From: a virus | DNA: 64,000 nucleotides | IMG/VR virus record: IMGVR_UViG_3300009184_000043 | Location: 4,745 to 68,744 of that record | Direction: 5' to 3' (one strand) | In this document: positions 2,657-26,861 of the stretch, one piece after another | Layout: each line of letters begins with the position of its first letter | Numbering within the stretch: position 1 is the first letter of the stretch | Notes under the pieces: generated by a model | What the model saw: the letters and a program-made list of their open reading frames with translations, nothing else | Database searches by the model: none | Told to the model about the DNA's origin: nothing | Made by a program: the position numbers and the translations under genes

Positions 2657-4303
2657 ATGTCAAGACTAAGCGAATTTGCTGACAAAAAAACAGCAATGCA
2701 AATTTTACAAAACTCCACTTACGGAGCACTAGGAGTGGAGAACTTCATGGGAGGAACATCTTATGTTTTATCGCCTCTAAACACTTTAAAGATTGTTGCT
2801 GCGTCTTCGATCTTTGGTGAACCACAATACTATAGAGACGGATTAGGTGCTCCTAAGAATCTTATCACTATCCTTGACTATTCTATATTAGCTCCTATGT
2901 TCAAATCCGAATCCGGAGCTTTAAAAGACGATATGAGCGTTGTAGATATATTTGAGGAAGCCATACAAGCATCATTGGACTTCGACTTTAAATCAACCTT
3001 GGATTTAGCATTAGAACTTCGTAACGAGTACTATATGCGTTTAAATCCTGCTGTAATATTCATGAAAGCGAGTATGCACGAAGGACGTCAGAAGTTTAAC
3101 GAAGAAAATCCGGGATATATGAAAATGATAGGCAAGTCAATTGCTCTACGTCCAGATGATTTAACAAATCAGTTTGAATACTACATGTATAAGAACGGAA
3201 GCAAAAAAGGACTTTCCTCACTAGTAAAAAGAACTTGGGCAGAAAGACTTTCTGAATTCTCTAGATACCAATTGAATAAGTACAAAGGTAAAAGATTAAT
3301 AGATCTTGTTCGTATTTCCCACGGTAAAAGCGAGGACATTAACGAACTAATGTCAACTGGTACATTAAAAATAACAGAACGGGAAAAAACTTGGGAGAAT
3401 TTAAGATCTGAAAAGAAATCTTGGGAAGAGATCACAAATACTATCTTAATCCCTCACATGGCTCTTTTGAGAAACCTTAGAGGTATTTTTACTGAAGTTG
3501 AAGATCCTACAATTACTGCTAGAATTTTAACACAATTAAAATCGGGTGTTGTTAAGGGAAAACAATTTCCTTTTAGATATTGGTCTGCTTATAGAGCAGT
3601 AACAGATTCTCAGATCCACCACAAACAACTTGTTTTGGATACTTTAGAGGAATGTTTAGATATCTCTGTTGAGAATATGCCTAAGTTAAAAGGTAAAACA
3701 GTTTGTCTTTCAGATAACTCCGGATCTGCATGGGGAGCTTTCAATAGCGAATATGGAACAGTTACCGTGGCAGAAATTGCTAACTTGTCTTCTTTAATTA
3801 CCTCACTACAATCCGATTCTGGAGAGGTTGGAGTATTTGGAGATAACCTTTCATTAAAAGGTGTATCTAAAAGAAACGGTCTTCTTACTCAATTGGATGA
3901 AACATCTAAAAGAGGTAAAGCTCAAGGAGGTGGTACAGAAAATGGTATTTGGGTATTCTTTGATGAAGCTATTAAAAATAAAGTCCATTACGACAACATC
4001 TTTATCTATTCAGATATGCAGGCAGGGCACGGAGGTCTTTTTGGACACAGAGAAACAGTAGGATCAAGTAAATTTATCCACCCGAAAGGAGGGGGAACAC
4101 ACGTAGACGTACTTGCTATGGCTCAGGAATACAGGGAAAAGGTTAATCCTAAAGTTAATTTATTTACTGTACAGGTGGGTGGCTACAATAACACCGTGCT
4201 TCCTGAAGCTCTTTATAGAGGAGGAATATTAGCAGGATGGACAGGTAAAGAACCAATATTTGCTAAAGCAATTATAGACATTTGGGATTCAGTAGAAGCC
4301 TAA
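2657..4303 (+). CDS. Ro60/TROVE-domain RNA-binding protein (Rsr-like)
   Basis: 548 aa; MALLRNL, FPFRYWSAY, vWA MIDAS DNSGS, IYSDMQ, GW near C-terminus. Confidence 0.92.
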   Translation: MSRLSEFADKKTAMQILQNSTYGALGVENFMGGTSYVLSPLNTLKIVAASSIFGEPQYYRDGLGAPKNLITILDYSILAPMFKSESGALKDDMSVVDIFEEAIQASLDFDFKSTLDLALELRNEYYMRLNPAVIFMKASMHEGRQKFNEENPGYMKMIGKSIALRPDDLTNQFEYYMYKNGSKKGLSSLVKRTWAERLSEFSRYQLNKYKGKRLIDLVRISHGKSEDINELMSTGTLKITEREKTWENLRSEKKSWEEITNTILIPHMALLRNLRGIFTEVEDPTITARILTQLKSGVVKGKQFPFRYWSAYRAVTDSQIHHKQLVLDTLEECLDISVENMPKLKGKTVCLSDNSGSAWGAFNSEYGTVTVAEIANLSSLITSLQSDSGEVGVFGDNLSLKGVSKRNGLLTQLDETSKRGKAQGGGTENGIWVFFDEAIKNKVHYDNIFIYSDMQAGHGGLFGHRETVGSSKFIHPKGGGTHVDVLAMAQEYREKVNPKVNLFTVQVGGYNNTVLPEALYRGGILAGWTGKEPIFAKAIIDIWDSVEA

Positions 4304-4673: not shown

Positions 4674-4820
4674 ATGGCTAAACCTAAAACTACAGATTCT
4701 AGCAAGAACCACAAGCGCAGCTCTAAGAAAAAAAGACCAGGAATTCATTCCAAGTGTAAAAGTAGTGTAAGTAAGAATTCTAAGAACTACAAGAAAGCTT
4801 ACGTTGGTCAAGGTAAATAA
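4674..4820 (+). CDS. Small basic protein (48 aa) ending KKAYVGQGK, not in the ORF track
   Basis: MAKPKTTDSSKNHKRSSKKKRPGIHSKCKSSVSKNSKNYKKAYVGQGK; A-rich start context; fills the gap between genes. Confidence 0.75.
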   Translation: MAKPKTTDSSKNHKRSSKKKRPGIHSKCKSSVSKNSKNYKKAYVGQGK

Positions 4821-4846
4821 TAAGGATATATAAAATAAAAAAAAAG

Positions 4847-5197
4847 ATGAAATATCTAAGAATTTACGAACAATATTCCACTGAGGCTATGCCTATGGAA
4901 GACACTATGAGTGATGTTCATTTTGAAGCAGAAACTACAGATTTTAGACCTACCGACGGAAATAGCGAAGGTAATTACATTGTTAACTTTCAAAATGCAG
5001 ACGGGGAAGATACAACAATAGAAATTGCTGGCGCTTCTGAACCAGAATACGTTGGAAGTTCAATGGTAAGCAATATCGAGATGATAGAAGATTCAAGCTC
5101 TGACGGAAGAAGATATTCAATCGTTGGATATTATGATGAAGTACCTGGACAGGACGGCGCATACGAACTTAAAAAAGTATTAGTAGAAGAAATCTAA
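4847..5197 (+). CDS. Hypothetical acidic protein with capsid-targeting-like N-terminus
   Basis: MKYLRIYEQY; GATATATA 4825. Confidence 0.6.
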   Translation: MKYLRIYEQYSTEAMPMEDTMSDVHFEAETTDFRPTDGNSEGNYIVNFQNADGEDTTIEIAGASEPEYVGSSMVSNIEMIEDSSSDGRRYSIVGYYDEVPGQDGAYELKKVLVEEI

Positions 5198-5199
5198 TT

Positions 5200-5481
5200 A
5201 TGTCAATTAAAGTCTATACAGGATACGAAGAATTTAAATTTGAGGAAGAAGAGATCTGCGAATATTTAGAATCAGATTTTTCAGATCCAAATCAAGGAGA
5301 AGAATCTGATGATGTATTTTTCTATACAGAATCTAAAATAGATTTTAGAGATGATGCAGATTTCTACATACTATGTGATCTCGAAGATGAAGAGACTGCA
5401 GAAGATATCGCTTCTTACTTAGGTAAGTCTAAAAAAATAAATCTTCAAGATTTCAGAAAATCATTTTTTTATATAAGATAA
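5200..5481 (+). CDS. Hypothetical acidic protein
   Basis: 93-aa ORF 2 nt after the previous stop. Confidence 0.55.
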   Translation: MSIKVYTGYEEFKFEEEEICEYLESDFSDPNQGEESDDVFFYTESKIDFRDDADFYILCDLEDEETAEDIASYLGKSKKINLQDFRKSFFYIR

Positions 5482-5531
5482 AATATCTATATTTGTGAAA
5501 CAAAACAACAAATACGATATATAAAGTTCAA

Positions 5532-5591
5532 ATGAAAACAATATTTAACATATCACCTTCAATATTAAGACCGTCGATAAGACGATCCTAA
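5532..5591 (+). CDS. Attenuator leader peptide 1 (MKTIFNISPSILRPSIRRS)
   Basis: Last 13 codons are only Ile(ATA)/Ser(TCN)/Pro/Leu(TTA)/Arg, matching tRNA array 1. Confidence 0.8.
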   Translation: MKTIFNISPSILRPSIRRS

Positions 5592-5657
5592 AGGTCCTGT
5601 GTTAATAAAAAATAATCATTAACTAAACCGGGACCTTCAAAAAGTCCCGGTTTTTTT
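5591..5657 (+). terminator. Attenuator 1: antiterminator plus intrinsic terminator
   Basis: Terminator AAACCGGGAC/GTCCCGGTTT + T7 (5625-5657); AAGGTCCTG (5591-5599) pairs with CGGGACCTT (5629-5637). Confidence 0.85.
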
Positions 5658-5658
5658 G

Positions 5659-5670
5659 TGTTCTTTGACA
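5659..5670 (+). promoter_or_regulatory. boxA-like antitermination site
   Basis: TGTTCTTTGACA, repeated after all three attenuators. Confidence 0.6.
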
Positions 5671-5687
5671 TGTTGGATTATCAAATT

Positions 5688-5777
5688 GGAGAGTTGGCAG
5701 AGCCCGGTTTAATGCACCAGTCTTGAAAACTGACGTAGTGAAAGCTACCGGGGGTTCGAATCCCTCACTCTCCTCCA
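5688..5777 (+). tRNA. tRNA-Ser(TGA)
   Basis: Cloverleaf, loop CT-TGA-AA, long variable arm, encoded CCA. Confidence 0.93.
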
Positions 5778-5780
5778 ATT

Positions 5781-5852
5781 GCCTCCGTAGTTCAACGGAT
5801 AGAACAGCGGTTTTCTAAACCGTCAATGTGGGTTCGATTCCCGCCGGGGGTA
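5781..5852 (+). tRNA. tRNA-Arg(TCT)
   Basis: Cloverleaf, loop TT-TCT-AA. Confidence 0.9.
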
Positions 5853-5865
5853 CTAAAAAATAAAA

Positions 5866-6024
5866 AGCCCTCTGCCTAGCGCTGGGTATGGATCGAAGAT
5901 AGAATATGCCTCTACAACGTAGACAGTTAGAATATTTCGGTATTCTTTAATGATATGCACACTTATTCTCTAAATCGTGGGTTAGCACAGTTTGTATGTT
6001 CTGGGGATATTTAAAGACATACAA
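5866..6024 (+). ncRNA. Putative structured RNA of unknown class inside tRNA array 1
   Basis: Nested hairpins, e.g. TCTAC/GTAGA, AGAATAT-TTCG-GTATTCT, TTGTATGTT/GACATACAA; no credible ORF. Confidence 0.35.
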
Positions 6025-6027
6025 TTT

Positions 6028-6100
6028 CGGGATGTAGATCAGTTGGTAGATCGCCTGGTTTGGGACCAGGAGGCCCCAGGTTCGAGTCCTGGTATCCCGA
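6028..6100 (+). tRNA. tRNA-Pro(TGG)
   Basis: Cloverleaf, loop TT-TGG-GA. Confidence 0.93.
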
Positions 6101-6108
6101 CAGCCCCA

Positions 6109-6182
6109 AGAGGCTTAGCTCAATTGGTTAGAGCACATGCCTTATACGCATGCGGTCATGGGTTCGACTCCCATAGTCTCTA
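6109..6182 (+). tRNA. tRNA-Ile(TAT)
   Basis: Cloverleaf, CATGC-CT-TAT-AC-GCATG. Confidence 0.88.
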
Positions 6183-6186
6183 CTTA

Positions 6187-6260
6187 GGTCCTTTAGCTCA
6201 GTAGGTTAGAGCAACTGACTCATAATCAGTAGGTCCACGGTTCGAGCCCGTGAGGGACCA
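6187..6260 (+). tRNA. tRNA-Ile2(CAT, lysidine type)
   Basis: CAT anticodon with Ile2-like body (GGTCCTT acceptor, ACTGA stem); initiator and elongator Met tRNAs are present elsewhere. Confidence 0.78.
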
Positions 6261-6276
6261 CAAAAATTACACATTC

Positions 6277-6360
6277 GCCCGGGTGGTGGAATTGGTAGTC
6301 ACGCAGCACTTAAAATGCTGTAACCATTTGGTTGTACGGGTTCGATTCCCGTCCCGGGTA
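6277..6360 (+). tRNA. tRNA-Leu(TAA)
   Basis: Cloverleaf, loop CT-TAA-AA, long variable arm. Confidence 0.93.
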
Positions 6361-6365
6361 CATAT

Positions 6366-6470
6366 ATAAGAGTGGCGGAAGTGTGATCATTGCAATGATC
6401 CGATAGATAGACGCTAGGGTAATCTACCCGAGAATGAAAGTTCATATTGGTGCAAGTCCAATCTCTTGTA
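6366..6470 (+). ncRNA. tRNA-like RNA with D-loop hairpin insertion and degenerate anticodon arm
   Basis: ATAAGAG/CTCTTGT acceptor; GCG/CGC D stem; insert GATCATTGCAATGATC; T arm ATTGG-TGCAAGT-CCAAT. Confidence 0.55.
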
Positions 6471-6492
6471 CTTTTTTGTTGATATATACTAT

Positions 6493-7344
6493 ATGCCAAC
6501 ATCAAGACCTTTCGCATATAATCCAACACAAGCAACAATTTCAGGAACTACAAACGTAGGTACATTATGTGTAGGTGTATCTGCTTTAAACTATGGTGCA
6601 AAACCCGGGGGATTAACTTGGTGGATGGGTCCAGACGAGGATAATTCTTATATAATAGCTAAAGATGTACCCTCTGGAAACTTTCCAACTCAAGTAGGTA
6701 ATATAGGCACTGTACAATTCTGGGGATGTACTAATACAGATGAAGCTTTTCGAATTACAGTACAAATAATAAGCGGTACTACACAAGCATCTGCTTCAGC
6801 AGCTAATGATTGGTTAACAGCAAATAACTATTGGACTAACAGAAATCCATATCTTGCAGGTTTATATAAGACGACTTACTCTGGGTATTTTGCTGATAAT
6901 GTTAGTTTCTTTGCAACTGCGACTCCCGCATCGGTAGGTGGAAATCCGGCAACATCAGTACAAACCACTTCTATATTTGAACCTTCTCAGAATGATGGAG
7001 AAAATTTCAGTTGTCAATGGTTAGGATATTTCAAACCAACCACCACAGAAACCTACACATTCTTTACTTCATCTGATGATGCCTCCTATGTTTGGGTTGG
7101 TAGTAATGCTGTTAGTGGATTCACTACAACAAACTCAACAGTTAATAACGGTGGATTACACGGTACAATCGAAAAATCTGGGACAATCGCTTTAACTTCG
7201 GGTGTTTATTATCCTATAAGAATACAATTTGGAGAGTTGAGTGGTGGTGACGTAATGACATTTAATTACTCAACTCCTACTATTACTAAAACGACTAATG
7301 TAACTGGATTGGTTTTCTATAATACATCAACTAATGGATTCTAA
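6493..7344 (+). CDS. PA14-domain carbohydrate-binding virion protein
   Basis: NFSCQWLGYF, YTFFTSSDDAS, YYPIRIQFGE PA14 motifs; start moved to MPTSRPF behind GATATATA 6481. Confidence 0.8.
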   Translation: MPTSRPFAYNPTQATISGTTNVGTLCVGVSALNYGAKPGGLTWWMGPDEDNSYIIAKDVPSGNFPTQVGNIGTVQFWGCTNTDEAFRITVQIISGTTQASASAANDWLTANNYWTNRNPYLAGLYKTTYSGYFADNVSFFATATPASVGGNPATSVQTTSIFEPSQNDGENFSCQWLGYFKPTTTETYTFFTSSDDASYVWVGSNAVSGFTTTNSTVNNGGLHGTIEKSGTIALTSGVYYPIRIQFGELSGGDVMTFNYSTPTITKTTNVTGLVFYNTSTNGF

Positions 7345-7447
7345 TTGGATAATTAGATATATAGAATGGATAAAAAACCTTGGAAGATATTATTGGGGTA
7401 CCTGATAGAATAGATCACTTTAAGGAGTATTATAACTTAATAAAATA

Positions 7448-8290
7448 ATGGAAGAGTATAAATTAAATGAATACAATGAGTTATTAATTAATTTTGTAAT
7501 TGATGTAACTGATGAATACGGTAGCACTACCACACAACCTGCTAACCCAGAGACAGGTGTAACTGTTATGGTTGGGTTGGTAGCTTTATTATCTAGGAGT
7601 GGTTTAAATGAAGCGGAACCAGTACTTAATTCTAAAACACCTAGTATAATAGATTCAACTGATTATTTATCAAAACAGTCCTCAAGGGTAAATGAACAAG
7701 GACAAGCTGTTATTAACTTAGATAAAACTTTTCTTTCTACTGAAGCATATAGATTCTACCAAAACTATTATCAAAAGTATACAATAGCACTTAAAATTGT
7801 TATCGAAGTACCAAAAAGTGAAATATATGCTTCTTCAATTACTTCAGATAATATATTAGTTGAATGGACTGTTTCTAAATATTTACAATTTGATTCAATC
7901 AATTACTCAGAATACAATGACGACATATATCTGGAGTCGGCGGGAAATAATATCGTTGACTTTGTACAACTTCGTTCAACTTTAAAAACAGCTGAGGAGA
8001 GCTATCTTTTGATTAAAAAAAGATACGATTCTGAATTATTAGCCAGTACTACAGACTTAGAATTACCAATAAGTGCTGTATATGAGCCTGCTTCATTTTC
8101 ACAAGTAATTACACGCTTACTTGAGTTTCAAGAAGGGACATTACTACCAGGATTATCTCATGCTGAAAAATTAAATTTAGATGTTGAATATAAAAGATTA
8201 GACACTATTAACAAGCTAATTAATATAGTAACTGGTATGTATTCTGAGATCACTATTGAAGATGGAGAAGGAATGCCTTATAGTGGATAA
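7448..8290 (+). CDS. Hypothetical protein
   Basis: 280-aa ORF. Confidence 0.6.
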   Translation: MEEYKLNEYNELLINFVIDVTDEYGSTTTQPANPETGVTVMVGLVALLSRSGLNEAEPVLNSKTPSIIDSTDYLSKQSSRVNEQGQAVINLDKTFLSTEAYRFYQNYYQKYTIALKIVIEVPKSEIYASSITSDNILVEWTVSKYLQFDSINYSEYNDDIYLESAGNNIVDFVQLRSTLKTAEESYLLIKKRYDSELLASTTDLELPISAVYEPASFSQVITRLLEFQEGTLLPGLSHAEKLNLDVEYKRLDTINKLINIVTGMYSEITIEDGEGMPYSG

Positions 8291-8324
8291 AATATTAGAT
8301 ATATAGATTAAATAAAAAAAAGAA

Positions 8325-8603
8325 ATGAAACACCTTAAAAAATATCAAGATAACAATTCCAAAATTAACGAAGGATTTTGGGATTCACTTTTCGGAAAAC
8401 CCACAGTTGACGATGCTGCTCACGATTCTCTTAGAGGTCAAGGATGGAGCCACAGGGGTAAGGACGAAGAAAACTATATCATGTTCCAGGGACAAAAATT
8501 TTATCCAGAGCAAATTCAATATGATGATGCTTATTCAACTAAACAAATACCAAGAGTAGAAGGAGATATGTTAATTGTAGCTAATCCAGCTTGGAGCATG
8601 TAA
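8325..8603 (+). CDS. Hypothetical protein with capsid-targeting-like N-terminus
   Basis: MKHLKKYQD...INE; GATATATA 8298. Confidence 0.6.
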   Translation: MKHLKKYQDNNSKINEGFWDSLFGKPTVDDAAHDSLRGQGWSHRGKDEENYIMFQGQKFYPEQIQYDDAYSTKQIPRVEGDMLIVANPAWSM

Positions 8604-8621
8604 AAAATTAAATATAAAAAA

Positions 8622-9317
8622 ATGAAAATTAAAAGATTCAACGATTTTATTCTAGAAAATCAATATTACAATCCTATTAACGAATCCGATATCGTACCAG
8701 GTGTACCTTATAATTTGGGTACCGATAGATCTGATAAGCTAGGTAACATGAAAGCTAATATAATGACGGTTGATACAAATAGTAATGACACAATTATTGG
8801 CTTTAGTAAAGGTGGTGAAAGTCCTAAAAGTGTATCAATTTACTTTCCTTCCTCTAATTATGCTGATAAGAAGACTCCCCCTGAATTAAAGCAGGGAAAA
8901 TCATACGCTTACATATATGAAAGAGTCGATGGGGATGATAGGTATCCTGCAGCAATTACTAAAATGGAAGATTTTGACGCAGATAAATCCAGCGGTCAAT
9001 TATATAATGCTTCAAATTCTATAGATCTACTTGCAAATTTTATGGAAAGATCCGGTATTTGCATCGATTCTACTGCAGGCACAAATCTAGCAAAAGTTAT
9101 AACTACTCTTCTATTGTCTCCTACTTATAATACTACGGTAACTGATACATTTAAAAAATTCGCGAAGAAGATCAGTAAAGAAATTACAATAAAAGGATTC
9201 ATTCCTAAAATGGCCAAACAGTTTGGTGATAGCGGAACTAAACAAGATCCAGGAATGAAATCATTCGTAGAAGAATTTCCAAAAAGTTATGCTGCTCTTT
9301 CCCCTAAAAAAGCATAA
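8622..9317 (+). CDS. Hypothetical protein with capsid-targeting-like N-terminus
   Basis: MKIKRFNDFILE. Confidence 0.6.
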   Translation: MKIKRFNDFILENQYYNPINESDIVPGVPYNLGTDRSDKLGNMKANIMTVDTNSNDTIIGFSKGGESPKSVSIYFPSSNYADKKTPPELKQGKSYAYIYERVDGDDRYPAAITKMEDFDADKSSGQLYNASNSIDLLANFMERSGICIDSTAGTNLAKVITTLLLSPTYNTTVTDTFKKFAKKISKEITIKGFIPKMAKQFGDSGTKQDPGMKSFVEEFPKSYAALSPKKA

Positions 9318-9336
9318 GGGTGTGAAACATTAAACT

Positions 9337-9366
9337 AAAAAGCCAGCTATATAGCTGGCTTTTTTT
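9337..9366. terminator. Bidirectional intrinsic terminator
   Basis: AAAAAGCCAGCTATATAGCTGGCTTTTTTT between convergent genes. Confidence 0.85.
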
Positions 9367-9877
9367 ATTGCTCTTTATATTCAGATATGGAGCATATCTT
9401 GTTATAATGCCATCCAACCATATATTCTCTATAGAATACGCCATCTTTGAATAGAGTATAAATCTCTTGGACAGTTCCATCGTCCTGAGTTTGAACCTCA
9501 TATTCATATCTGTCGTATCTTACCTGTTTAAGGAAACTATCGTAATATGAATCTACTGTGCTCTTTATCATAATTGGCTCATATAGCATATCGTCTTCTG
9601 TATAAAGATCCCATTCCACACCGGGAGCAAAAACTCCAATATAGCTTTCATCCTTCTTAGTAATAAATTTTTTCCATAGCTTAGGATTCCCTACTACGCT
9701 TAAGAATTTACCTCTTAGTTCCGGTTGATCGTAAAATGGATAGTAAGCATCGCCTCTCAATTTGCTAGCTCCAGCCATTGTGTTGTTGAAAGATTCTATG
9801 CCTTCATTCTGCGATAAAGCGGTTACACTTGTTCCTAGTATGAATAGGAAAATAAATGCTAATTTTAGATTTTTCAT
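9365..9877 (-). CDS. Secreted/periplasmic hypothetical protein
   Basis: N-terminal signal peptide MKNLKLAFIFLFILGTSVTALSQ. Confidence 0.65.
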   Translation of the reverse strand: MKNLKLAFIFLFILGTSVTALSQNEGIESFNNTMAGASKLRGDAYYPFYDQPELRGKFLSVVGNPKLWKKFITKKDESYIGVFAPGVEWDLYTEDDMLYEPIMIKSTVDSYYDSFLKQVRYDRYEYEVQTQDDGTVQEIYTLFKDGVFYREYMVGWHYNKICSISEYKEQ

Positions 9878-10016
9878 AGATCATTGTATTATTGTTACAG
9901 ATTCAAATATAGATCAGAAATATAGATAATTCCAGATGATTTCACATTTTTATTTTTTTTAATAGAAACTTTTTTGTACTTTTGAGGTATATAATAAAAA
10001 AAGAACAAAGCTTTCA

Positions 10017-10106
10017 ATGAAACACTTTTTAAATATCGCAATAGATTTTCAACTTCATAAAGAAGATGACCTTCTAGAGGATACAATTAAGTGTCAGAGG
10101 AAATAA
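10017..10106 (+). CDS. Attenuator leader peptide 2 (MKHFLNIAIDFQLHKEDDLLEDTIKCQRK)
   Basis: Run GAA GAT GAC CTT CTA GAG GAT matches the Glu/Asp/Leu(TAG) tRNAs of array 2. Confidence 0.8.
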   Translation: MKHFLNIAIDFQLHKEDDLLEDTIKCQRK

Positions 10107-10156
10107 ATTTATATAACGATATAATTTAAACCTCTGATAACCTCAGAGGTTTTTTT
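10092..10156 (+). terminator. Attenuator 2: antiterminator plus intrinsic terminator
   Basis: Terminator AAACCTCTGA-TAACC-TCAGAGGTTT + T run (10128-10156); TGTCAGAGG (10092-10100) pairs with CCTCTGATA (10131-10139). Confidence 0.85.
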
Positions 10157-10164
10157 GTTTTATA

Positions 10165-10176
10165 TGTTCTTTGAAA
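10165..10176 (+). promoter_or_regulatory. boxA-like antitermination site
   Basis: TGTTCTTTGAAA. Confidence 0.6.
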
Positions 10177-10180
10177 TTAC

Positions 10181-10252
10181 GCTGCCATCGTCTAACGGTT
10201 AGGACCTATGGTTTTCATCCATAAAATCGGAGTTCGATTCTCCGTGGCAGTA
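10181..10252 (+). tRNA. tRNA-Glu(TTC)
   Basis: Cloverleaf, loop TT-TTC-AT. Confidence 0.92.
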
Positions 10253-10263
10253 CAAAAAATTAA

Positions 10264-10338
10264 GGTCCCGTAGTTAAACGGCTATAATGCTGCCCTGTCA
10301 CGGCAGAGTTCGGAGTTCGATTCTCCGCGGGACCGCCA
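10264..10338 (+). tRNA. tRNA-Asp(GTC)
   Basis: Cloverleaf, loop CT-GTC-AC, G73, CCA. Confidence 0.93.
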
Positions 10339-10343
10339 TATAT

Positions 10344-10416
<73 letters not shown>

Positions 10417-10420
10417 CTAA

Positions 10421-10499
10421 GCCCAGGTGGTGAAATGGTATACACGCTAGATTTAGGATCTAGTGCGAAAGCGTGAGGGTTCGAGTCCCTCCCTGGGTA
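10421..10499 (+). tRNA. tRNA-Leu(TAG)
   Basis: Cloverleaf, loop TT-TAG-GA, variable arm. Confidence 0.93.
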
Positions 10500-10501
10500 C
10501 T

Positions 10502-11071
10502 ATGAAAATTATATTTTTAGATCATGATGGAGTAATTTGTCTTTCCCAACAATTTGGAGGACGTTACAAAAAGCAGGCTAAAGCTAGAAAAAAGCTTTCG
10601 CAGGATGTAATGAGTTTTCATGTAGGAGCTAGATTTGATAACTTCGACAAGAAAGCAATAAAGGTTTTAAATTTAATTCTAGAAGAGACTGGAGCTGAAA
10701 TAGTTGTTTCTTCAGATTGGAAGGTCTGGGCAACAATAGAGGAAATGGGAGAATACTATGAACAACAAGGAATAATTAAAAAACCTATAGATTTCACACC
10801 AAGAGAATATCCTTACACAGAAAACCAAGAATGGCATCCAGACTGGGATTTAGAAGCATCAAGAACTTTAGAAATCCAAGAATGGTTAAAGGCCCATTCC
10901 GGAGTTACTCATTGGGTAGCAATAGATGATTTAGATATGAGCTTTAAAGAAGTATCTAATAATAGAAGCGGTACTGGATGGGGATTAACAAACTTTGTAC
11001 ACACTCCTAGCATTATGCAAGGGATTAAGCAATCAGGAATAAAAGAAAAAGTTTTAAAATTTTTGAAATAA
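10502..11071 (+). CDS. HAD-superfamily phosphatase, Swiss-army-knife RNA-repair type
   Basis: IIFLDHDGV, IVVSSDW, WVAIDD motifs; start moved to ATG 10502 because the GTG start lies inside tRNA-Leu. Confidence 0.8.
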   Translation: MKIIFLDHDGVICLSQQFGGRYKKQAKARKKLSQDVMSFHVGARFDNFDKKAIKVLNLILEETGAEIVVSSDWKVWATIEEMGEYYEQQGIIKKPIDFTPREYPYTENQEWHPDWDLEASRTLEIQEWLKAHSGVTHWVAIDDLDMSFKEVSNNRSGTGWGLTNFVHTPSIMQGIKQSGIKEKVLKFLK

Positions 11072-11152
11072 TTTGAAAAACATTTTTTTATTTAAAAAAG
11101 ATATTGTACTTTTACGAAACTATTCTGGAAACAGGATATATAATAAAGAAAA

Positions 11153-11260
11153 ATGAAAAACTGTAGTAAACATAACATCAATCGCATGATCAGTCAGATT
11201 AATGGCTGCTATCAAACGGTGGCGTTTTGGGCAAAGGGGAAAGAACCCGATCGAAGCTAA
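11153..11260 (+). CDS. Attenuator leader peptide 3 (MKNCSKHNINRMISQINGCYQTVAFWAKGKEPDRS)
   Basis: First 30 codons use exactly the 16 amino acids of tRNA array 3 and no others. Confidence 0.82.
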   Translation: MKNCSKHNINRMISQINGCYQTVAFWAKGKEPDRS

Positions 11261-11323
11261 TACAGAAAATCATATTTAGATATTTCGGAAAAGGCTTTGA
11301 TTCACATCAAAGCCTTTTTTTTT
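11249..11323 (+). terminator. Attenuator 3: antiterminator plus intrinsic terminator
   Basis: Terminator AAAAGGCTTTGAT-TCAC-ATCAAAGCCTTTT + T run (11289-11323); GATCGAAGCT (11249-11258) pairs with GGCTTTGATT (11293-11302) using G:U pairs. Confidence 0.82.
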
Positions 11324-11334
11324 GTTCTTTGACA
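11323..11334 (+). promoter_or_regulatory. boxA-like antitermination site
   Basis: TGTTCTTTGACA. Confidence 0.6.
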
Positions 11335-11348
11335 TACTGGAAAAAAAT

Positions 11349-11421
11349 GGTACCGTAGCTCAGTTGGTAGAGCACTAGACTGAAAATCTAGGTGTCGCCG
11401 GTTCGATTCCGGCCGGTACCA
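11349..11421 (+). tRNA. tRNA-Phe(GAA)
   Basis: Cloverleaf, loop CT-GAA-AA. Confidence 0.94.
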
Positions 11422-11491
11422 CAATACTAAACAAGAAATTGTCTCACTAAACTAATCATGTTTAGTATTACAAAAACAAGTTTAGTAAAAT

Positions 11492-11564
11492 GATCTCGTA
11501 GCTCAGCTGGTAGAGCACCGCACTTTTAATGCGGGAGTCGAGGGTTCGAGCCCCTCCGGGATCA
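11492..11564 (+). tRNA. tRNA-Lys(TTT)
   Basis: Cloverleaf, loop CT-TTT-AA. Confidence 0.94.
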
Positions 11565-11570
11565 CTATAC

Positions 11571-11643
11571 ACATCGGTAGCTCAGTTGGTAGAGCACCAG
11601 TCTCCAAAACTGGGTGTCGTAGGTTCGAGTCCTACCCTTTGTG
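11571..11643 (+). tRNA. tRNA-Trp(CCA)
   Basis: Cloverleaf, loop CT-CCA-AA; two acceptor mismatches (ACATCGG/CCTTTGT). Confidence 0.82.
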
Positions 11644-11651
11644 CAAAATAA

Positions 11652-11724
11652 GGCTCTATAGTTCAATGGATTAGAATAGATCACTACGGATGATCTGATC
11701 CTGGTTCGAATCCAGGTGGAGCCT
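11652..11724 (+). tRNA. tRNA-Arg(ACG)
   Basis: Cloverleaf, loop CT-ACG-GA. Confidence 0.92.
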
Positions 11725-11735
11725 CAAATAAATAA

Positions 11736-11807
11736 GGTCGTGTGGTCGAGTGGTTTAGGCACTAGTCTGCAAAACTAGTTATACTGGTTCGATTCCAGTC
11801 ACGACCT
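11736..11807 (+). tRNA. tRNA-Cys(GCA)
   Basis: Cloverleaf, loop CT-GCA-AA, U73. Confidence 0.93.
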
Positions 11808-11824
11808 CAAAAAAATTTAAAAAT

Positions 11825-11962
11825 ATGACGATAGAAAGCAGAATAGTAGCAAGAGGAAGTTTCCCCTCTAGTAAAGAAAACTTAAGAAGAGAAACAATAA
11901 AATTTAAACACACCGAAAGATTGATAAAAAGAATCAGAAGGTTAATTAAAAAAGGAAAGTAA
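11825..11962 (+). CDS. Small basic ORF (45 aa) inside tRNA array 3
   Basis: MTIESRIVARGSFPSSKENLRRETIKFKHTERLIKRIRRLIKKGK; fills the spacer; stop overlaps tRNA-Ser 5' end. Confidence 0.45.
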   Translation: MTIESRIVARGSFPSSKENLRRETIKFKHTERLIKRIRRLIKKGK

Positions 11963-12039
11963 TCTCAGATGGTGACGGGGCTCGCCTGCTAAGCGAAGCG
12001 TACTTTAATTGGTATTTGGTTCGATTCCAATTCTTTCCG
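11954..12039 (+). tRNA. tRNA-Ser(GCT)
   Basis: Loop CT-GCT-AA, long variable arm, G73; atypical D arm. Confidence 0.78.
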
Positions 12040-12045
12040 CAACAT

Positions 12046-12122
12046 TGACATATAGCTCAGTTGGTTAGAGCGTTGATCTGATACGTCAAAGGCCGAAGGT
12101 TCGAATCCTTCTATGTCAACCA
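12046..12122 (+). tRNA. tRNA-Ile(GAT)
   Basis: Cloverleaf, loop CT-GAT-AC, CCA. Confidence 0.92.
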
Positions 12123-12127
12123 CATTT

Positions 12128-12200
12128 AGTCTCTTAGCTCAGTTGGTAGAGCGTTTGGTTTACATCCAAAATGTCGGGGGTTCGAATCCCTCAGGGACTA
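12128..12200 (+). tRNA. tRNA-Val(TAC)
   Basis: Cloverleaf, loop TT-TAC-AT. Confidence 0.92.
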
Positions 12201-12202
12201 CA

Positions 12203-12291
12203 AGATTAGAAGCGGTGAAAGGGGTTACTTCGATCAAAACCTTGTAATTTTTTGACCAAAAAAACCACCCCGTTCAAATATTCTCTAATCT
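12203..12291 (+). ncRNA. Y RNA-like element 4, between tRNA-Val and tRNA-Asn
   Basis: AGATTAGA/TCTAATCT; AGCGG; TGAAAGGGGT/ACCCCGTTCA; TACTTC; same architecture as elements 1-3. Confidence 0.65.
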
Positions 12292-12296
12292 AAACT

Positions 12297-12369
12297 GGGG
12301 ATGTAGCTCAGCGGTAGTAGCAACTGACTGTTAATCAGTAGGTCATAGGTTCGAATCCTATCATCCCCG
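12297..12369 (+). tRNA. tRNA-Asn(GTT)
   Basis: Cloverleaf, loop CT-GTT-AA, G73. Confidence 0.92.
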
Positions 12370-12374
12370 CACTT

Positions 12375-12459
12375 CGGAGTGTTGAGCAATTGGTTGCTCA
12401 GCTGACTGTAAATCAGCCGCCTTACGGCATTGGGGGTTCGAATCCCTCCGCTCCGACCA
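12375..12459 (+). tRNA. tRNA-Tyr(GTA)
   Basis: Loop CT-GTA-AA, long variable arm, CCA; C1:G72 pair. Confidence 0.9.
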
Positions 12460-12462
12460 AAT

Positions 12463-12537
12463 GCAGGTATCGTATAACGGTCATTACTTCTGACTTCCAA
12501 TCAGAAGATCTCGGTTCGATTCCGGGTACCTGCTCCA
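12463..12537 (+). tRNA. tRNA-Gly(TCC)
   Basis: Cloverleaf, loop CT-TCC-AA, U73, CCA. Confidence 0.93.
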
Positions 12538-12611
12538 GTGGGATTAGCTCAGCTGGCTAGAGCACTTGCCTTGCACGCAAGGGGTCAACGGTTCGAATCC
12601 GTTATCCTCCA
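12538..12611 (+). tRNA. tRNA-Ala(TGC)
   Basis: Loop CT-TGC-AC; G3:U70 identity pair. Confidence 0.92.
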
Positions 12612-12620
12612 CTTTTATAT

Positions 12621-12693
12621 GGCGAGTTAGCTCAGCTGGTAGAGCGTCGGAATCATACCCCGAAGGTCGGCAGTTCGAACCTGCCACTCGCTA
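12621..12693 (+). tRNA. Elongator tRNA-Met(CAT)
   Basis: GGCGAGT acceptor, loop AT-CAT-AC. Confidence 0.82.
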
Positions 12694-12695
12694 CT

Positions 12696-12769
12696 GTGAC
12701 GGTAGCTCAGTTGGTTAGAGCGTCTGATTGTGGTTCAGAAGGTCGGGAGTTCGATTCTCCTCTGTCACC
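12696..12769 (+). tRNA. tRNA-His(GTG)
   Basis: Loop TT-GTG-GT, C73; encoded -1 base is T. Confidence 0.9.
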
Positions 12770-12773
12770 TATT

Positions 12774-12846
12774 GCCTTTGTAGCTCAGCTGGTAGAGCGC
12801 TTCATTTGTAATGAAGATGTCGCAGGTTCGATCCCTGTCAAAGGCT
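12774..12846 (+). tRNA. tRNA-Thr(TGT)
   Basis: Cloverleaf, loop TT-TGT-AA. Confidence 0.93.
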
Positions 12847-12852
12847 CTATAA

Positions 12853-12925
12853 TGTCCTGTGGTGTAATTGGCAACACGTCTGATTTTGATTCAGAAGAGT
12901 CCAGGTTCGAGCCCTGGCGGGACAT
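12853..12925 (+). tRNA. tRNA-Gln(TTG)
   Basis: Cloverleaf, loop TT-TTG-AT, U1:A72. Confidence 0.92.
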
Positions 12926-12948
12926 CTAAAAAATAAGATATATAGGTC

Positions 12949-13677
12949 ATGATGATCCTAAAATATTCTGAATTTATTAACGAGAGTAATAGGGAAGAAT
13001 ACATAAAAAATTATTGCAAAGAATCCCCTGTTATTCCACAGGTTCCTGTGTCTTTTAAAAAAATACATGGTGATCTAATTAAAGTGGGAAAATACAAAGA
13101 GACGTTAAAATCTATTGATAATGGTGATGCAGTAATAGTAGGAATAAGAAGAAAATTGGAAGCTAGAAAGAATGGTCAAGAAAAATATATTGACAGTATT
13201 TATTTTATACCAAAGAATGCAAAAAAAGAAAATCCTAATATTACACCATTCCAAGCCACCACAGTTCCTTCTGTCGCTTGGTTCGATACCGATGTAGCAA
13301 TTTTGGATGATTCTGAATATAAATTTAAGATCGGAACTCACACTTTTGGATCGTCGAATAAAACAATACCTGCTTTGGTTCCTAGTATTGATGGATTATC
13401 TCCAAAGGAAATACCAGTAAATAGATTTTCAGCAAAAGACAACGTGGTAAAAACATATGATCCACCAAAAAAAGATATAGGAACTGGTACAAATTTTCAT
13501 TATGGGTTATCTCCTAAAGGTGTAGATGGATCTTCTGGTATACCCTGTGTTGGTGGATATTCTGCTGGATGTCAAGTAATTCCGACAGAAAAAAAATGGA
13601 ACGAATTTTGGAATTTAGTAAAAAATTCAAAACAACAAATCTTTTGGTATTCTATTATCGAAGAAGATAAATTATAA
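12949..13677 (+). CDS. Putative L,D-transpeptidase-like (YkuD-type) cell-wall enzyme
   Basis: NFH...YSAGCQV His/Cys motif; capsid-targeting-like start ILKYSEFINE. Confidence 0.55.
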   Translation: MMILKYSEFINESNREEYIKNYCKESPVIPQVPVSFKKIHGDLIKVGKYKETLKSIDNGDAVIVGIRRKLEARKNGQEKYIDSIYFIPKNAKKENPNITPFQATTVPSVAWFDTDVAILDDSEYKFKIGTHTFGSSNKTIPALVPSIDGLSPKEIPVNRFSAKDNVVKTYDPPKKDIGTGTNFHYGLSPKGVDGSSGIPCVGGYSAGCQVIPTEKKWNEFWNLVKNSKQQIFWYSIIEEDKL

Positions 13678-26419: not shown

Positions 26420-26441
26420 ATCCCCTTCGGATATATAAAAC

Positions 26442-26861
26442 ATGGCAGAAGTATATCCAGCAGGTACCACATCGATTAGAAATCTTACACCAAGATACAA
26501 TTACTTCCTGGTAGTAAAACCTGATTCATTAGTAGACGATATTCCACAAAAAGAGTATTTTGTTTACAGATTTAAAGTATCTGTTTCTTCGAGTGATGGG
26601 GTAAGATATTTAAAATCTTATTTTATAGGAGTATCTTTAATAGAGTGTAGATCTTTATCCGATGTAGAATATGCAACTGGTAATTTTCAACATCCAGATT
26701 ACACTAACAGCAACATGACTCCTCTAACATTTAAGATGAGAGATATTCCAATCTATTTACAATCAGCAGTAGGTATAATAAATCTTAATAAAGATCCATA
26801 CCAATATGGAAGCAAACCAATCATTATCGATAGTACTTCCGTAATATTAGACAATAATTAA
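26442..26861 (+). CDS. Hypothetical late protein
   Basis: 139-aa ORF behind GATATATA 26430. Confidence 0.55.
   Translation: MAEVYPAGTTSIRNLTPRYNYFLVVKPDSLVDDIPQKEYFVYRFKVSVSSSDGVRYLKSYFIGVSLIECRSLSDVEYATGNFQHPDYTNSNMTPLTFKMRDIPIYLQSAVGIINLNKDPYQYGSKPIIIDSTSVILDNN

What the first reader, a model, noticed from the sequence alone, without database searches (positions are those of the whole stretch)
5532..5670. Attenuator 1: Ile(ATA)/Ser/Pro/Leu(TTA)/Arg(AGA) sensor
Seen: ATG AAA ACA ATA TTT AAC ATA TCA CCT TCA ATA TTA AGA CCG TCG ATA AGA CGA TCC TAA. The last 13 codons use only the five amino acids of array 1. All four Ile are ATA and all four Ser are TCN; only CGA belongs to another array. AAGGTCCTG begins at the stop codon and pairs with CGGGACCTT in the terminator's 5' arm, so a terminating ribosome would mask it. 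Inference: this array covers codons that are common in the phage (ATA, AGA, TTA) and often scarce in hosts.
Basis: partly seen in the sequence, partly recalled or inferred. Interest (0 to 1): 0.85.

Follow-up and report, generated by a model that had tools for sequence, protein, structure and literature searches.

The report
Codon-matched attenuator before phage tRNA genes
A 19-codon mini-gene and a switchable transcription stop sit in front of six tRNA genes of a large freshwater phage, and the mini-gene is written almost wholly in the codons those tRNAs read, so the phage probably makes these tRNAs only when ribosomes are slow at those codons.

Summary
ATG 5532 to TAA 5589-5591 encodes MKTIFNISPSILRPSIRRS. 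Thirteen of its 18 sense codons after the ATG lie in the codon boxes of the six tRNAs that follow (Ser-TGA, Arg-TCT, Pro-TGG, Ile-TAT, Met-CAT, Leu-TAA), against a background of 21% (P=5e-6). The run of 11 such codons is the longest in any frame of the 68.7-kb contig. The RNA has the four regions of a classical attenuator: 1:2 hairpin, 2:3 antiterminator starting in the stop codon, 3:4 terminator.

Two further arrays in the window carry the same module. The three leaders split Leu, Arg, Ser and Ile codons according to where each isoacceptor gene lies (22 cognate, 2 not). In related viral contigs, 29 leader families match their own arrays far better than re-paired ones (0 of 200,000), and 17 of 29 have a significant antiterminator near the stop codon.

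Best reading: ribosome-mediated attenuation giving feedback control of phage tRNA transcription. There is no experimental proof. One low-depth RNA-library contig spans leader, terminator and tRNA-Ser.

Eight literature searches found no description of this for tRNA genes. This scan has noted the same thing before on other DNA. I rate it a new variant of a known kind.

The parts
5493..5524 (+). Promoter-like stretch: TTGTGA (5493-5498) and GATATATAA (5516-5524), ending 7 nt before the ATG. The leader mRNA would have a 5' UTR of 0-2 nt or very short.
   Evidence: One search gives the sequence. The stretch is invariant or nearly so in 5 aligned relatives. TATATAA-type motifs lie 2-25 nt before many ATGs of the window. 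The transcription start was not mapped.
5532..5591 (+). Leader ORF, 19 codons plus TAA: MKTIFNISPSILRPSIRRS.
   Evidence: It is the only ATG ORF of 8 or more codons that ends within 90 nt before the terminator. It is kept in 9 distinct homologous leaders, 8 of them with ATG.
5550..5582 (+). Sensor run of 11 consecutive codons read by the array's tRNAs: ATA TCA CCT TCA ATA TTA AGA CCG TCG ATA AGA.
   Evidence: longest such run in six frames of the contig. Codons 7-11 stay in the cognate set in 45 of 45 cells of 9 distinct homologues, although the amino acid changes.
5545..5559 (+). Region 1 (anti-antiterminator 5' strand), inside the ORF; pairs with region 2.
   Evidence: MFE fold (-34.2 kcal/mol, z -5.0). 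Kept in the consensus fold of 4 relatives.
5591..5605 (+). Region 2. Pairs either with region 1 or, through AAGGTCCTG (5591-5599), with the terminator 5' arm. It starts at the last base of the stop codon.
5625..5657 (+). Intrinsic terminator (regions 3 and 4): stem 5625-5634 / 5644-5653, loop 5635-5643, seven T at 5651-5657.
   Evidence: -15.5 kcal/mol. Not listed by the consensus scan, whose loop limit is 8.
5660..5671 (+). Conserved box GTTCTTTGACAT between the terminator and the first tRNA; function unknown.
   Evidence: It occurs 3 times in the window, each time after one of the three tRNA-leader terminators. In loci chosen through a protein, 33 of 54 + strand copies lie within 60 nt before a tRNA.
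5688..6361 (+). Regulated tRNA array 1: Ser-TGA 5688-5777, Arg-TCT 5781-5853, Pro-TGG 6028-6101, Ile-TAT 6109-6183, Met-CAT 6187-6261, Leu-TAA 6277-6361.
10017..10152 (+). Sister module 2: leader MKHFLNIAIDFQLHKEDDLLEDTIKCQRK (10017-10106) and terminator 10128-10152, before Glu-TTC, Asp-GTC, Met-CAT, Leu-TAG.
11153..11320 (+). Sister module 3: leader MKNCSKHNINRMISQINGCYQTVAFWAKGKEPDRS (11153-11260) and terminator 11287-11320, before Phe, Lys, Trp, Arg-ACG, Cys, Ser-GCT, Ile-GAT, Val, Asn, Tyr, Gly, Ala, Met, His, Thr, Gln.

Best explanation
This is a ribosome-mediated (leader-peptide) transcription attenuator that gates a phage tRNA operon and reads out how fast the codons of that operon's own tRNAs are decoded.

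Inferred sequence of events:
1. Transcription starts at the promoter-like site just before the ATG, and a ribosome starts on the nascent leader.
2. If tRNAs for ATA, TCN, CCN, TTA or AGA are short, the ribosome stalls inside 5550-5580. That keeps region 1 (5545-5559) single-stranded and leaves region 2 (5591-5605) free.
3. Region 2 then pairs with the 5' arm of the terminator as it emerges. The terminator cannot form, and RNA polymerase runs on into Ser-TGA, Arg-TCT, Pro-TGG, Ile-TAT, Met-CAT and Leu-TAA.
4. If decoding is fast, the ribosome reaches TAA (5589-5591) and covers region 2. If there is no translation, region 1 sequesters region 2. In both cases the terminator forms and the array stays off.

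The result would be negative feedback on the supply of exactly these tRNA species. The same design is used at the two other arrays of the phage.

Shown here: the anatomy, the statistics and the conservation. Inferred: translation of the leader, coupling to transcription, and the response to tRNA shortage.
For: (1) Codon match. 13 of 18 leader codons lie in the array-1 boxes against a background of 0.211, P=4.8e-6. The run of 11 is the longest in the contig.

(2) Control within one genome. Counts of leader codons falling in arrays 1, 2, 3 are: leader 1 13/0/5, leader 2 3/9/16, leader 3 1/2/30. Against backgrounds of 0.21, 0.17 and 0.62, each leader is most enriched for its own array.

(3) The match is at the level of the isoacceptor. 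Leader 1 uses ATA x4, TCN x4, TTA and AGA x2, with one CGA. Leader 3 uses ATY x3, AGY x3 and CGN x2, although CGN is only about 11% of Arg codons in the phage. Leader 2 uses CTN x3 and TTA x1. That is 22 cognate against 2 non-cognate. Across 29 leader families the figures are 60 against 23 (72%), compared with 52+-6% after re-pairing; 2 of 20,000 re-pairings reach the observed value.

(4) Four-region anatomy. The MFE fold has the 1:2 hairpin plus the terminator (-34.2 kcal/mol, z -5.0, 0 of 200 shuffles). The 2:3 alternative is -13.7, or -16.5 as a duplex with 0 of 1000 shuffles as good. The terminator is -15.5. While the 3' arm is still unmade, the MFE structure is 2:3.

(5) Generality. 77 terminator-before-tRNA modules were found, 74 of them with an ORF, grouping into 29 leader families. 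Summed own-array match is 12.83 against 9.18+-0.45 after re-pairing; 0 of 200,000 re-pairings reach it. 17 of 29 families have a segment within -25 to +28 nt of the stop codon that pairs with the terminator 5' arm at p<0.05, and 13 at p<0.01. Within loci, match to the own array is 0.49 against 0.18 for other arrays of the same locus.

(6) Evolution of this leader. In 9 distinct homologues, codons 7-11 are always in the cognate set (45 of 45), while the amino acid switches among S, L and I. For codons 2-6 the figure is 6 of 45.

(7) Missing Shine-Dalgarno site. Only 3 of 48 long genes of the phage have an SD-like site, so its absence before the leader is normal for this phage.

(8) Weak RNA hint. 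In one metatranscriptome run, a 231-nt contig of depth 2.4 covers 5545-5773, that is leader, terminator and tRNA-Ser, with 2 differences. The protein-coding flanks of that run have no cover.
Against: - There is no experiment. The transcription start, translation of the leader and termination at 5657 are not mapped.
- At equilibrium the terminator always wins. With a ribosome footprint masked at each of 14 positions, the MFE structure kept the terminator 14 of 14 times. The model therefore depends on co-transcriptional kinetics, as it does for trp.
- There is no compensatory base-pair change among the 4 aligned relatives (0 of 28 pairs); they are too similar to give a covariation test.
- Covariation with array content is imperfect. 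L003 lacks Leu-TAA yet keeps two TTA codons. In the distant clade, 4 of 5 arrays that begin with Trp kept the unchanged leader.
- 12 of 29 families show no significant antiterminator near the stop codon.
- Leader 2 alone is only marginal (P=0.036).
- One homologue (L200) has ATA in place of the ATG.
- The RNA contig is of low depth, and DNA carry-over cannot be excluded.
- The conserved box after the terminator is unexplained and contains a -35-like hexamer.
Confidence: 0.75

Rival explanations
1. The module is a separate small transcription unit (promoter, tiny gene, ordinary terminator). The tRNA array is transcribed on its own from a promoter in the conserved box GTTCTTTGACAT, so the terminator only insulates.
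For: The box is conserved, lies between the terminator and the first tRNA, and contains a perfect -35-type hexamer. The terminator is the equilibrium structure in all folds.
Against: No -10-like element follows at a usable distance. In the window the hexamer ends 4, 14 and 17 nt before the mature tRNA 5' end. The box end lies mostly 14-16 nt before the tRNA in relatives. This reading explains neither the codon-anticodon match nor the antiterminator at the stop codon. An RNA-library contig runs from the leader through the terminator into tRNA-Ser (weak). A second promoter could coexist with attenuation.
Confidence: 0.1
2. It is a true attenuator, but it senses amino-acid supply or general translation stress rather than the abundance of particular tRNA species.
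For: Classical attenuators respond to charged tRNA, and any slowing of decoding in the leader would give read-through. The leader uses five amino acids, as multivalent amino-acid attenuators do (recalled knowledge of ilvGMEDA and thr).
Against: The genes controlled are tRNAs, not biosynthetic enzymes, so read-through would not relieve amino-acid starvation. Codon choice within Leu, Arg, Ser and Ile follows where each isoacceptor gene lies (22 against 2 in the window; 72% against 52% across families). An amino-acid sensor does not need that.
Confidence: 0.1
3. The ORF encodes a functional micro-protein, or the terminated leader RNA acts in trans, and the resemblance of its codons to the array is secondary.
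For: Leaders of many families share an N-terminal pattern (M-K, then N-I or N-V near codons 6-7). Attenuator-derived small RNAs and leader peptides with functions of their own are known (search listing of PMC6614838 and PMC7968998; abstracts only).
Against: In the sensor run the amino acid is not conserved (S, L or I at one position), whereas membership of the cognate codon set is (45 of 45). This is the reverse of what selection on a peptide sequence gives. In 4 of 9 distinct leaders the stop codon lies just before region 2, and in the other 5 it lies 15 nt later, so 5 residues are added without loss of the module.
Confidence: 0.04
4. Chance: a short ORF that happens to lie before a terminator in an AT-rich intergenic region.
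For: Short ORFs are common (180 ORFs of 20 aa or more in the first 14 kb).
Against: P=4.8e-6 for the codon match, and the longest cognate run in the contig. The design recurs at all three arrays and in 29 leader families. 0 of 200,000 re-pairings reach the observed match.
Confidence: 0.01

Closest known systems
Leader-peptide attenuators of enterobacterial amino-acid operons (trpL, hisL, leuL, pheL), as recalled from textbooks; theory paper PMC1183508 seen only as search listing and abstract
   Same: A short translated leader with regulatory codons. Regions 1:2, 2:3 and 3:4, with the stop codon placed so that a terminating ribosome covers region 2. An intrinsic terminator lies before the regulated genes.
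   Different: The regulated genes are tRNAs, not biosynthetic enzymes, so the loop closes on the decoding agent itself. The regulatory codons cover five amino acids and are chosen at the isoacceptor level. There is no Shine-Dalgarno site and probably almost no 5' UTR. No Rfam leader family is matched at its threshold: Thr_leader 25.7 bits against a gathering score of 55.
Multivalent attenuators ilvGMEDA (Ile/Val/Leu) and thr (Thr/Ile), recalled
   Same: One leader mixes codons of several amino acids, so shortage of any of them gives read-through.
   Different: There the set of codons mirrors the end products of a pathway. Here it mirrors the anticodons of the tRNA genes behind the terminator, and it changes as the array changes.
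pheST leader-peptide attenuator and T-box riboswitches, which control aminoacyl-tRNA synthetase genes (recalled)
   Same: Genes of the translation apparatus are controlled by the state of the cognate tRNA through a terminator/antiterminator switch.
   Different: pheST controls a synthetase with codons of a single amino acid. T-boxes bind uncharged tRNA directly and need no ribosome; no T-box match appeared at E<=1 in 4800-13200.
Cryptic long tRNA operon (trn) of Anabaena 7120, induced under translational stress (PMC8421152, passages searched; PMC10272220, abstract)
   Same: An accessory tRNA array that is kept silent and switched on when translation is impaired. RNA-repair genes lie nearby: rtcB there (15 occurrences of the term), Ro/TROVE and HAD_SAK_2 here.
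   Different: According to the abstract of PMC10272220, control there is by a transcriptional repressor, TrcR. PMC8421152 contains neither 'attenuat', 'leader peptide' nor 'terminator' (0 occurrences each).
Leaderless polycysteine short ORFs acting as Cys-responsive attenuators in mycobacteria (bioRxiv 10.1101/834739; title and abstract start seen)
   Same: A short sensor ORF at or near the 5' end of the transcript with no SD site, which controls downstream genes through ribosome stalling.
   Different: That system has one amino acid, controls biosynthetic genes and belongs to a bacterial chromosome. Here there are several tRNA species, tRNA genes are controlled, and the element is in a phage.

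Membership tests
Ribosome-mediated (leader-peptide) transcription attenuators | Short ORF with a start codon in the transcribed leader, in a translatable context | tested here: met
   ATG 5532 to TAA 5591. 8 of 9 distinct homologues keep ATG; L200 has ATA. The lack of an SD site is the rule in this phage: 3 of 48 genes have one. Translation itself was not observed.
Ribosome-mediated (leader-peptide) transcription attenuators | Regulatory codons cognate to what the operon supplies | tested here: met
   13 of 18 codons, P=4.8e-6, with a run of 11. All five non-Met tRNAs of the array are represented.
Ribosome-mediated (leader-peptide) transcription attenuators | Intrinsic terminator between the leader and the regulated genes | tested here: met
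   10-bp stem, seven T, -15.5 kcal/mol, ending 30 nt before tRNA-Ser.
Ribosome-mediated (leader-peptide) transcription attenuators | Antiterminator (2:3) mutually exclusive with the terminator | tested here: met
   5591-5599 pairs with 5629-5637. Fold energy -13.7 kcal/mol, with 2 of 200 shuffles as good. Duplex energy -16.5, with 0 of 1000 shuffles as good.
Ribosome-mediated (leader-peptide) transcription attenuators | Anti-antiterminator (1:2) whose 5' strand holds regulatory codons | tested here: met
   5545-5559 pairs with 5591-5605 in the MFE fold and in the consensus fold of 4 relatives. No compensatory changes were available.
Ribosome-mediated (leader-peptide) transcription attenuators | Stop codon placed so that a terminating ribosome masks region 2 | tested here: met
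   Region 2 starts at the last base of TAA. In 5 of 9 distinct homologues the stop lies 15 nt later, directly after AAGGTCCTG. The same geometry is seen in leaders 2 and 3.
Ribosome-mediated (leader-peptide) transcription attenuators | Leader and regulated genes on one transcript | tested here: inconclusive
   One RNA-library contig of depth 2.4 covers 5545-5773. DNA carry-over cannot be excluded, and only contigs were available, not raw reads.
Ribosome-mediated (leader-peptide) transcription attenuators | [quoted passage not shown] | not testable with these tools
   This needs a reporter or in-vitro coupled transcription-translation.
Rfam leader families (Thr_leader, Trp_leader, Phe_leader, L20_leader and others) | Score at or above the family's gathering threshold | tested here: not met
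   Thr_leader scores 25.7 bits at 5538-5660 against a gathering score of 55. L20_leader scores 22.4 against 58.7.
T-box riboswitch | Match to the T-box covariance model (specifier loop and T-box sequence) | tested here: not met
   No T-box row among the 48 matches at E<=1 in 4800-13200.

The most novel reading that the evidence does not exclude
Large phages carry a modular, evolvable family of multi-codon decoding-speed sensors. Each tRNA operon sits behind a mini-gene spelled in the codons of its own tRNAs, so the phage measures, isoacceptor by isoacceptor, whether the infected cell can decode, and tops up only the species that are short. Shortage could arise when the host's tRNAs are scarce, degraded, or cut by anticodon nucleases. 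That would be the first cis-acting feedback loop known for tRNA genes. It would also be a built-in counter-measure to tRNA-targeting defence, which fits the Ro-like and RNA-repair-type genes next to the arrays.
Probability: 0.55. Interest if true: 0.88.

Novelty: new variant of a known kind. Interest (0 to 1): 0.8.

Why it matters
How phages regulate their tRNA genes is largely unknown, and why they carry them is still debated (codon compensation, host shut-off, escape from tRNA-cleaving defences). A leader-peptide switch whose codons mirror the tRNAs behind it would give tRNA genes a demand-driven control, something not described for any tRNA operon in my searches. It would also make the debate testable, because the signal that opens the switch is by construction the shortage the phage cares about.

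The element is small and modular, and it appears to be re-programmable simply by changing codons. That also makes it attractive as a synthetic sensor of decoding capacity for individual codons.

Tried and rejected
**Bacteriophage T5.** I recalled, without a source, that short ORFs in its tRNA region had been linked to attenuation. I fetched 26000-42000 of NC_005859 and ran my module finder on it. It found no terminator within 110 nt before any tRNA. The record annotates promoters and small ORFs but no attenuator. T5 is therefore not an example by my criteria, and the recollection stays unverified.

**Literature.** Eight searches ran, plus passages of PMC4810235, PMC7412058, PMC10644984 and PMC8421152. 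None describes leader-peptide attenuation of tRNA genes. Subscription-only papers and supplements were not visible.

**Similarity searches against deposited phages.**
- Megablast of 5200-6400 gave no match.
- Distant blastn matched only the tRNA genes.
- The HAD protein matched only two uncultured records, at 35% identity.
- The portal is nearest to uncultured huge phages and Prevotella Lak phages, at 33-44% identity.
- No cultured relative was found that could serve as a model.

**Rfam.** Only sub-threshold leader matches.

**Equilibrium folding with a masked ribosome footprint.** The terminator stayed the MFE structure at all 14 positions. This cannot discriminate the two states; a kinetic model is needed.

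**Structural covariation.** 0 of 28 pairs have double changes among 4 relatives. This is uninformative, not negative.

**Spacer 5853-6028 as a structured RNA** (for example a partner of the Ro-like protein). The fold is no better than shuffles (z +0.82) and there is no Rfam match.

**Protein 5200-5481 as an anchor for relatives.** Only 3 loci came back.

**RNA runs.** Only contigs were available. Parts of the stretch without cover in X19-X22 say nothing.

**Box GTTCTTTGACAT as a sigma-70-type promoter.** Rejected for want of a -10 element at a workable distance. Its role stays open.

**Rows dropped before the counts.**
- 3 of 77 modules had no ORF.
- Modules whose arrays had only undetermined anticodons were also dropped. 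There were about five, visible; the exact number was not printed.
- For each leader family, the member with the most diverse array was used.
Full report
**What is there.** The window is most of a 68.7-kb contig with 34.5% G+C. It encodes a T4-type large terminase, a T4-type portal and a tail sheath. Its portal is closest to uncultured huge phages and Prevotella Lak phages, at 33-44% identity. The DNA occurs in freshwater and riverine metagenomes.

ARAGORN finds 25 tRNA genes in three blocks. A 26th, tRNA-Ser(GCT), lies at 11953-12039. ARAGORN missed it and Rfam scored it below threshold as tRNA-Sec, but it aligns with the Ser-GCT genes of two relatives. Together the set serves all 20 amino acids. 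The finding lies directly before the first block.

**The observation.**
- ATG 5532 to TAA 5589-5591 reads MKTIFNISPSILRPSIRRS.
- The last 13 codons use only I, S, P, L and R.
- Ile is ATA four times and Ser is TCN four times.
- CGA is the only codon of the 13 read by a tRNA of another block.
- AAGGTCCTG (5591-5599) starts at the last base of the stop codon and pairs over 9 bp, one of them G-U, with 5629-5637, which overlaps the 5' arm of a terminator. The terminator has stem 5625-5634 / 5644-5653 and seven T.

Against the phage's own codon usage, 13 of 18 codons in the array-1 boxes has P=4.8e-6. The run of 11 cognate codons (5550-5582) is the longest in all six frames of the contig; the next longest is 8.

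**Anatomy.** The leader therefore has the four classical regions:
- 1:2, the anti-antiterminator;
- 2:3, the antiterminator, at -13.7 kcal/mol in a fold and -16.5 as a duplex, with 0 of 1000 shuffles as good;
- 3:4, the terminator, at -15.5 kcal/mol.

While the 3' arm is still unmade, 2:3 is the MFE structure. At equilibrium the terminator always wins, even with a ribosome footprint masked at any of 14 positions. The switch must therefore be kinetic, as in trp.

A promoter-like stretch ends 7 nt before the ATG and there is no Shine-Dalgarno site. That is normal for this phage: only 3 of 48 long genes have an SD-like site, and TATATAA-type motifs sit just before many start codons.

**The same module at the other arrays.**
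- *Leader 2* (10017-10106) contains GAA GAT GAC CTT CTA GAG GAT. It is followed by a terminator and then Glu-TTC, Asp-GTC, Met-CAT and Leu-TAG.
- *Leader 3* (11153-11260) contains at least one codon for each of the 15 amino acids served by the third block that ARAGORN found, plus AGY Ser codons for the Ser-GCT gene. It has no Leu codon at all.

Leader codons fall in arrays 1, 2 and 3 as 13/0/5, 3/9/16 and 1/2/30. Because the three leaders lie in one genome, this comparison controls for composition. Each leader has a segment at or just before its stop codon that pairs with its terminator's 5' arm: -16.5, -11.1 and -11.0 kcal/mol, with 0, 1 and 9 of 1000 shuffles as good.

**The codon, not only the amino acid.** The split families are divided among the leaders exactly as the isoacceptor genes are divided among the arrays.
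- Leader 1 uses ATA, TCN, TTA and AGA.
- Leader 2 uses CTN three times and TTA once.
- Leader 3 uses ATY, AGY and CGN, even though CGN is only about a tenth of the phage's Arg codons.

That is 22 cognate against 2 non-cognate codons in the window. This argues for sensing of tRNA species rather than of amino acids.

**Relatives.** The HAD_SAK_2 protein between arrays 2 and 3 has 298 relatives in viral contigs, some over 300 kb long. I scanned those loci, plus loci found through the post-terminator box, for a terminator within 110 nt before a tRNA. This gave 77 modules, 74 of them with an ORF ending within 90 nt of the terminator, grouping into 29 leader families. The tests on these families gave:
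- *Own array against re-paired arrays.* The summed fraction of leader codons in the own array's boxes is 12.83, against 9.18+-0.45 when leaders and arrays are re-paired. 0 of 200,000 re-pairings reach the observed value.
- *Split families.* 60 cognate against 23 non-cognate codons (72%), against 52+-6% after re-pairing; 2 of 20,000 reach it.
- *Antiterminator near the stop codon.* Significant in 17 of 29 families at p<0.05 and in 13 at p<0.01; 12 show none.
- *Within loci that hold two or more modules.* Match to the own array is 0.49, against 0.18 for the other arrays of the same locus. These loci are related, so they are not independent.

Striking single cases include:
- FDFAFFAAEADE before Phe, Glu, His, Asp, Ala;
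- TTGTTYQPKQYTQGGKP before Pro, Gln, Tyr, Thr, Gly, Lys;
- ANINIANNYPCNAGNPDYD before Pro, Asn, Asp, Ala, Tyr.

**Evolution of this particular leader.** Nine distinct homologues were recovered.
- In codons 7-11, all 45 cells stay within the array-1 codon set, while the amino acid changes (TCA, TTA or ATA at one position; TCA, ATA, TTA, TCC or TCT at another).
- In codons 2-6, only 6 of 45 cells are in the set.
- The stop codon lies either just before region 2 (4 leaders) or 15 nt later, just after it (5 leaders). Either way a terminating ribosome covers region 2.

This is selection on which tRNA reads the codon, not on the peptide.

**Results against the reading.**
- L003 has lost Leu-TAA from the array but keeps two TTA codons.
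- L200 has ATA instead of the ATG, together with a rearranged array.
- In a more distant clade, one array reduced to Trp, Ile, Phe, Gly, Asp and Gln has a leader with 8 substitutions, all to those six amino acids. By my arithmetic from the frequencies this is roughly 3e-5 by chance. However, four other arrays that begin with Trp keep the unchanged leader.
- There were no compensatory base-pair changes to test.
- Leader 2 alone is marginal (P=0.036).

**RNA evidence.** Four metatranscriptome runs, available as contigs only, were laid on 4800-13200. One 231-nt contig of depth 2.4 in run X19 covers 5545-5773 with 2 differences, running from codon 5 of the leader through the terminator into tRNA-Ser. 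That run has no cover on the coding flanks 4800-5361 and 6486-10138. This is compatible with a read-through precursor, but it is weak: the depth is low and DNA carry-over is not excluded.

**Mechanism, and which steps are inferred.** The anatomy, the statistics and the conservation are shown. The following steps are inferred.
1. A ribosome that is slow at ATA, TCN, CCN, TTA or AGA within 5550-5580 holds region 1 open without reaching region 2.
2. Region 2 then captures the terminator's 5' arm, and the polymerase reads into the six tRNA genes.
3. A fast ribosome reaches TAA and covers region 2. With no ribosome at all, 1:2 forms. In both cases termination follows.

The outcome is negative feedback on the supply of these tRNA species. 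What causes shortage in nature is open: codon-usage mismatch with the host, host shut-off, or tRNA-cleaving defence. The neighbouring Ro/TROVE-like gene and the HAD domain of RNA-repair proteins hint at RNA damage but prove nothing.

**Comparison and novelty.** It works like the trp, his and leu attenuators, and most like the multivalent ilv and thr ones. It meets every structural criterion of that class that I could test.
- It is not a member of any Rfam leader family, and it is not a T-box.
- The nearest case in print that I could find for conditional expression of an accessory tRNA array is the Anabaena trn operon. According to the abstract seen it is controlled by a repressor, and its 2021 paper never mentions attenuation, leader peptides or terminators.
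- Phage T5 has no such module by my criteria.
- Eight full-text searches found no description of leader-peptide attenuation of tRNA genes. Subscription journals and supplements were out of reach.
- This scan has recorded the same design many times on other DNA. Those notes are unchecked AI notes and were used only as leads.

I class it as a new variant of a known kind, of high interest, awaiting experiment.

Noticed in passing
window 11953-12039 (+): An unannotated tRNA-Ser(GCT). ARAGORN misses it and Rfam calls it tRNA-Sec below threshold (36.6 bits against 47). It aligns with the Ser-GCT genes of L006 and L007 and has the anticodon loop CTGCTAA. It brings the set to 26 tRNA genes and makes the AGT/AGC codons of leader 3 cognate.
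   Followed up: partly
window 5660-5671, 10166-10177, 11324-11335 (+): Conserved box GTTCTTTGA(C/A)AT directly after each of the three tRNA-leader terminators and nowhere else in the window. In 860 kb of protein-selected relatives, 33 of 54 + strand copies lie within 60 nt before a tRNA, mostly 14-16 nt. Function unknown (processing site, pause site or phage-specific promoter?).
   Followed up: partly
window 2657-4303 (+) and 10502-11071 (+): A Ro/TROVE-like protein (50% identical to Bacillus phage G gp540) lies upstream of array 1. A HAD domain of 'Swiss Army Knife' RNA-repair proteins lies between arrays 2 and 3. These are RNA quality-control or repair genes embedded in the tRNA region.
   Followed up: partly
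whole window: Only 3 of 48 long + strand genes have a Shine-Dalgarno-like site. GATATATA-type motifs lie 2-27 nt before many start codons. This suggests a host that does not use SD (the portal's nearest named relatives infect Prevotella) and a phage-wide promoter type giving very short 5' UTRs.
   Followed up: partly
L012 8857-8970 compared with L008, L017, L025, L027, L067, L076: In a more distant clade, the leader before a reduced array (Trp, Ile, Phe, Gly, Asp, Gln) carries 8 substitutions, all to those six amino acids. Four other arrays that begin with Trp keep the unchanged leader. The adjustment of leader to array is apparent but inconsistent.
   Followed up: partly
L200 (reverse strand) about 7030-7300: A homologue of leader 1 with ATA in place of ATG. 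It is followed by a Ser-TGA-like tRNA that ARAGORN does not call, and by a rearranged array (Arg-TCT, an inserted ORF, Ile-TAT, Glu-TTC). It may be a decaying or re-wired module.
   Followed up: partly
leaders in window, L001-L197 and L199-L206: Leaders of many unrelated-looking families begin alike: M-K, or M-R/M-T, then N-I, N-V or N-L near codons 6-7. This suggests either common descent of the modules or a shared requirement for initiation or for region 1.
   Followed up: no
window 5853-6028 (+): A 176-nt spacer inside array 1, between tRNA-Arg and tRNA-Pro. It is present in RNA-library contigs (5924-6107 with 0 differences; 5872-6156) but has no fold signal and no Rfam match. Part of it recurs in L200 next to an inserted ORF.
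   Followed up: partly
window 11825-11962 (+): A 45-codon, very basic ORF (MTIESRIVARGSF...KKGK) lies inside array 3 and overlaps the start of the Ser-GCT gene. Whether it is real is unknown.
   Followed up: no
window 6466-7344 (+): A protein with a PA14/GLEYA carbohydrate-binding domain directly after array 1. This is unusual cargo in a tRNA region.
   Followed up: no
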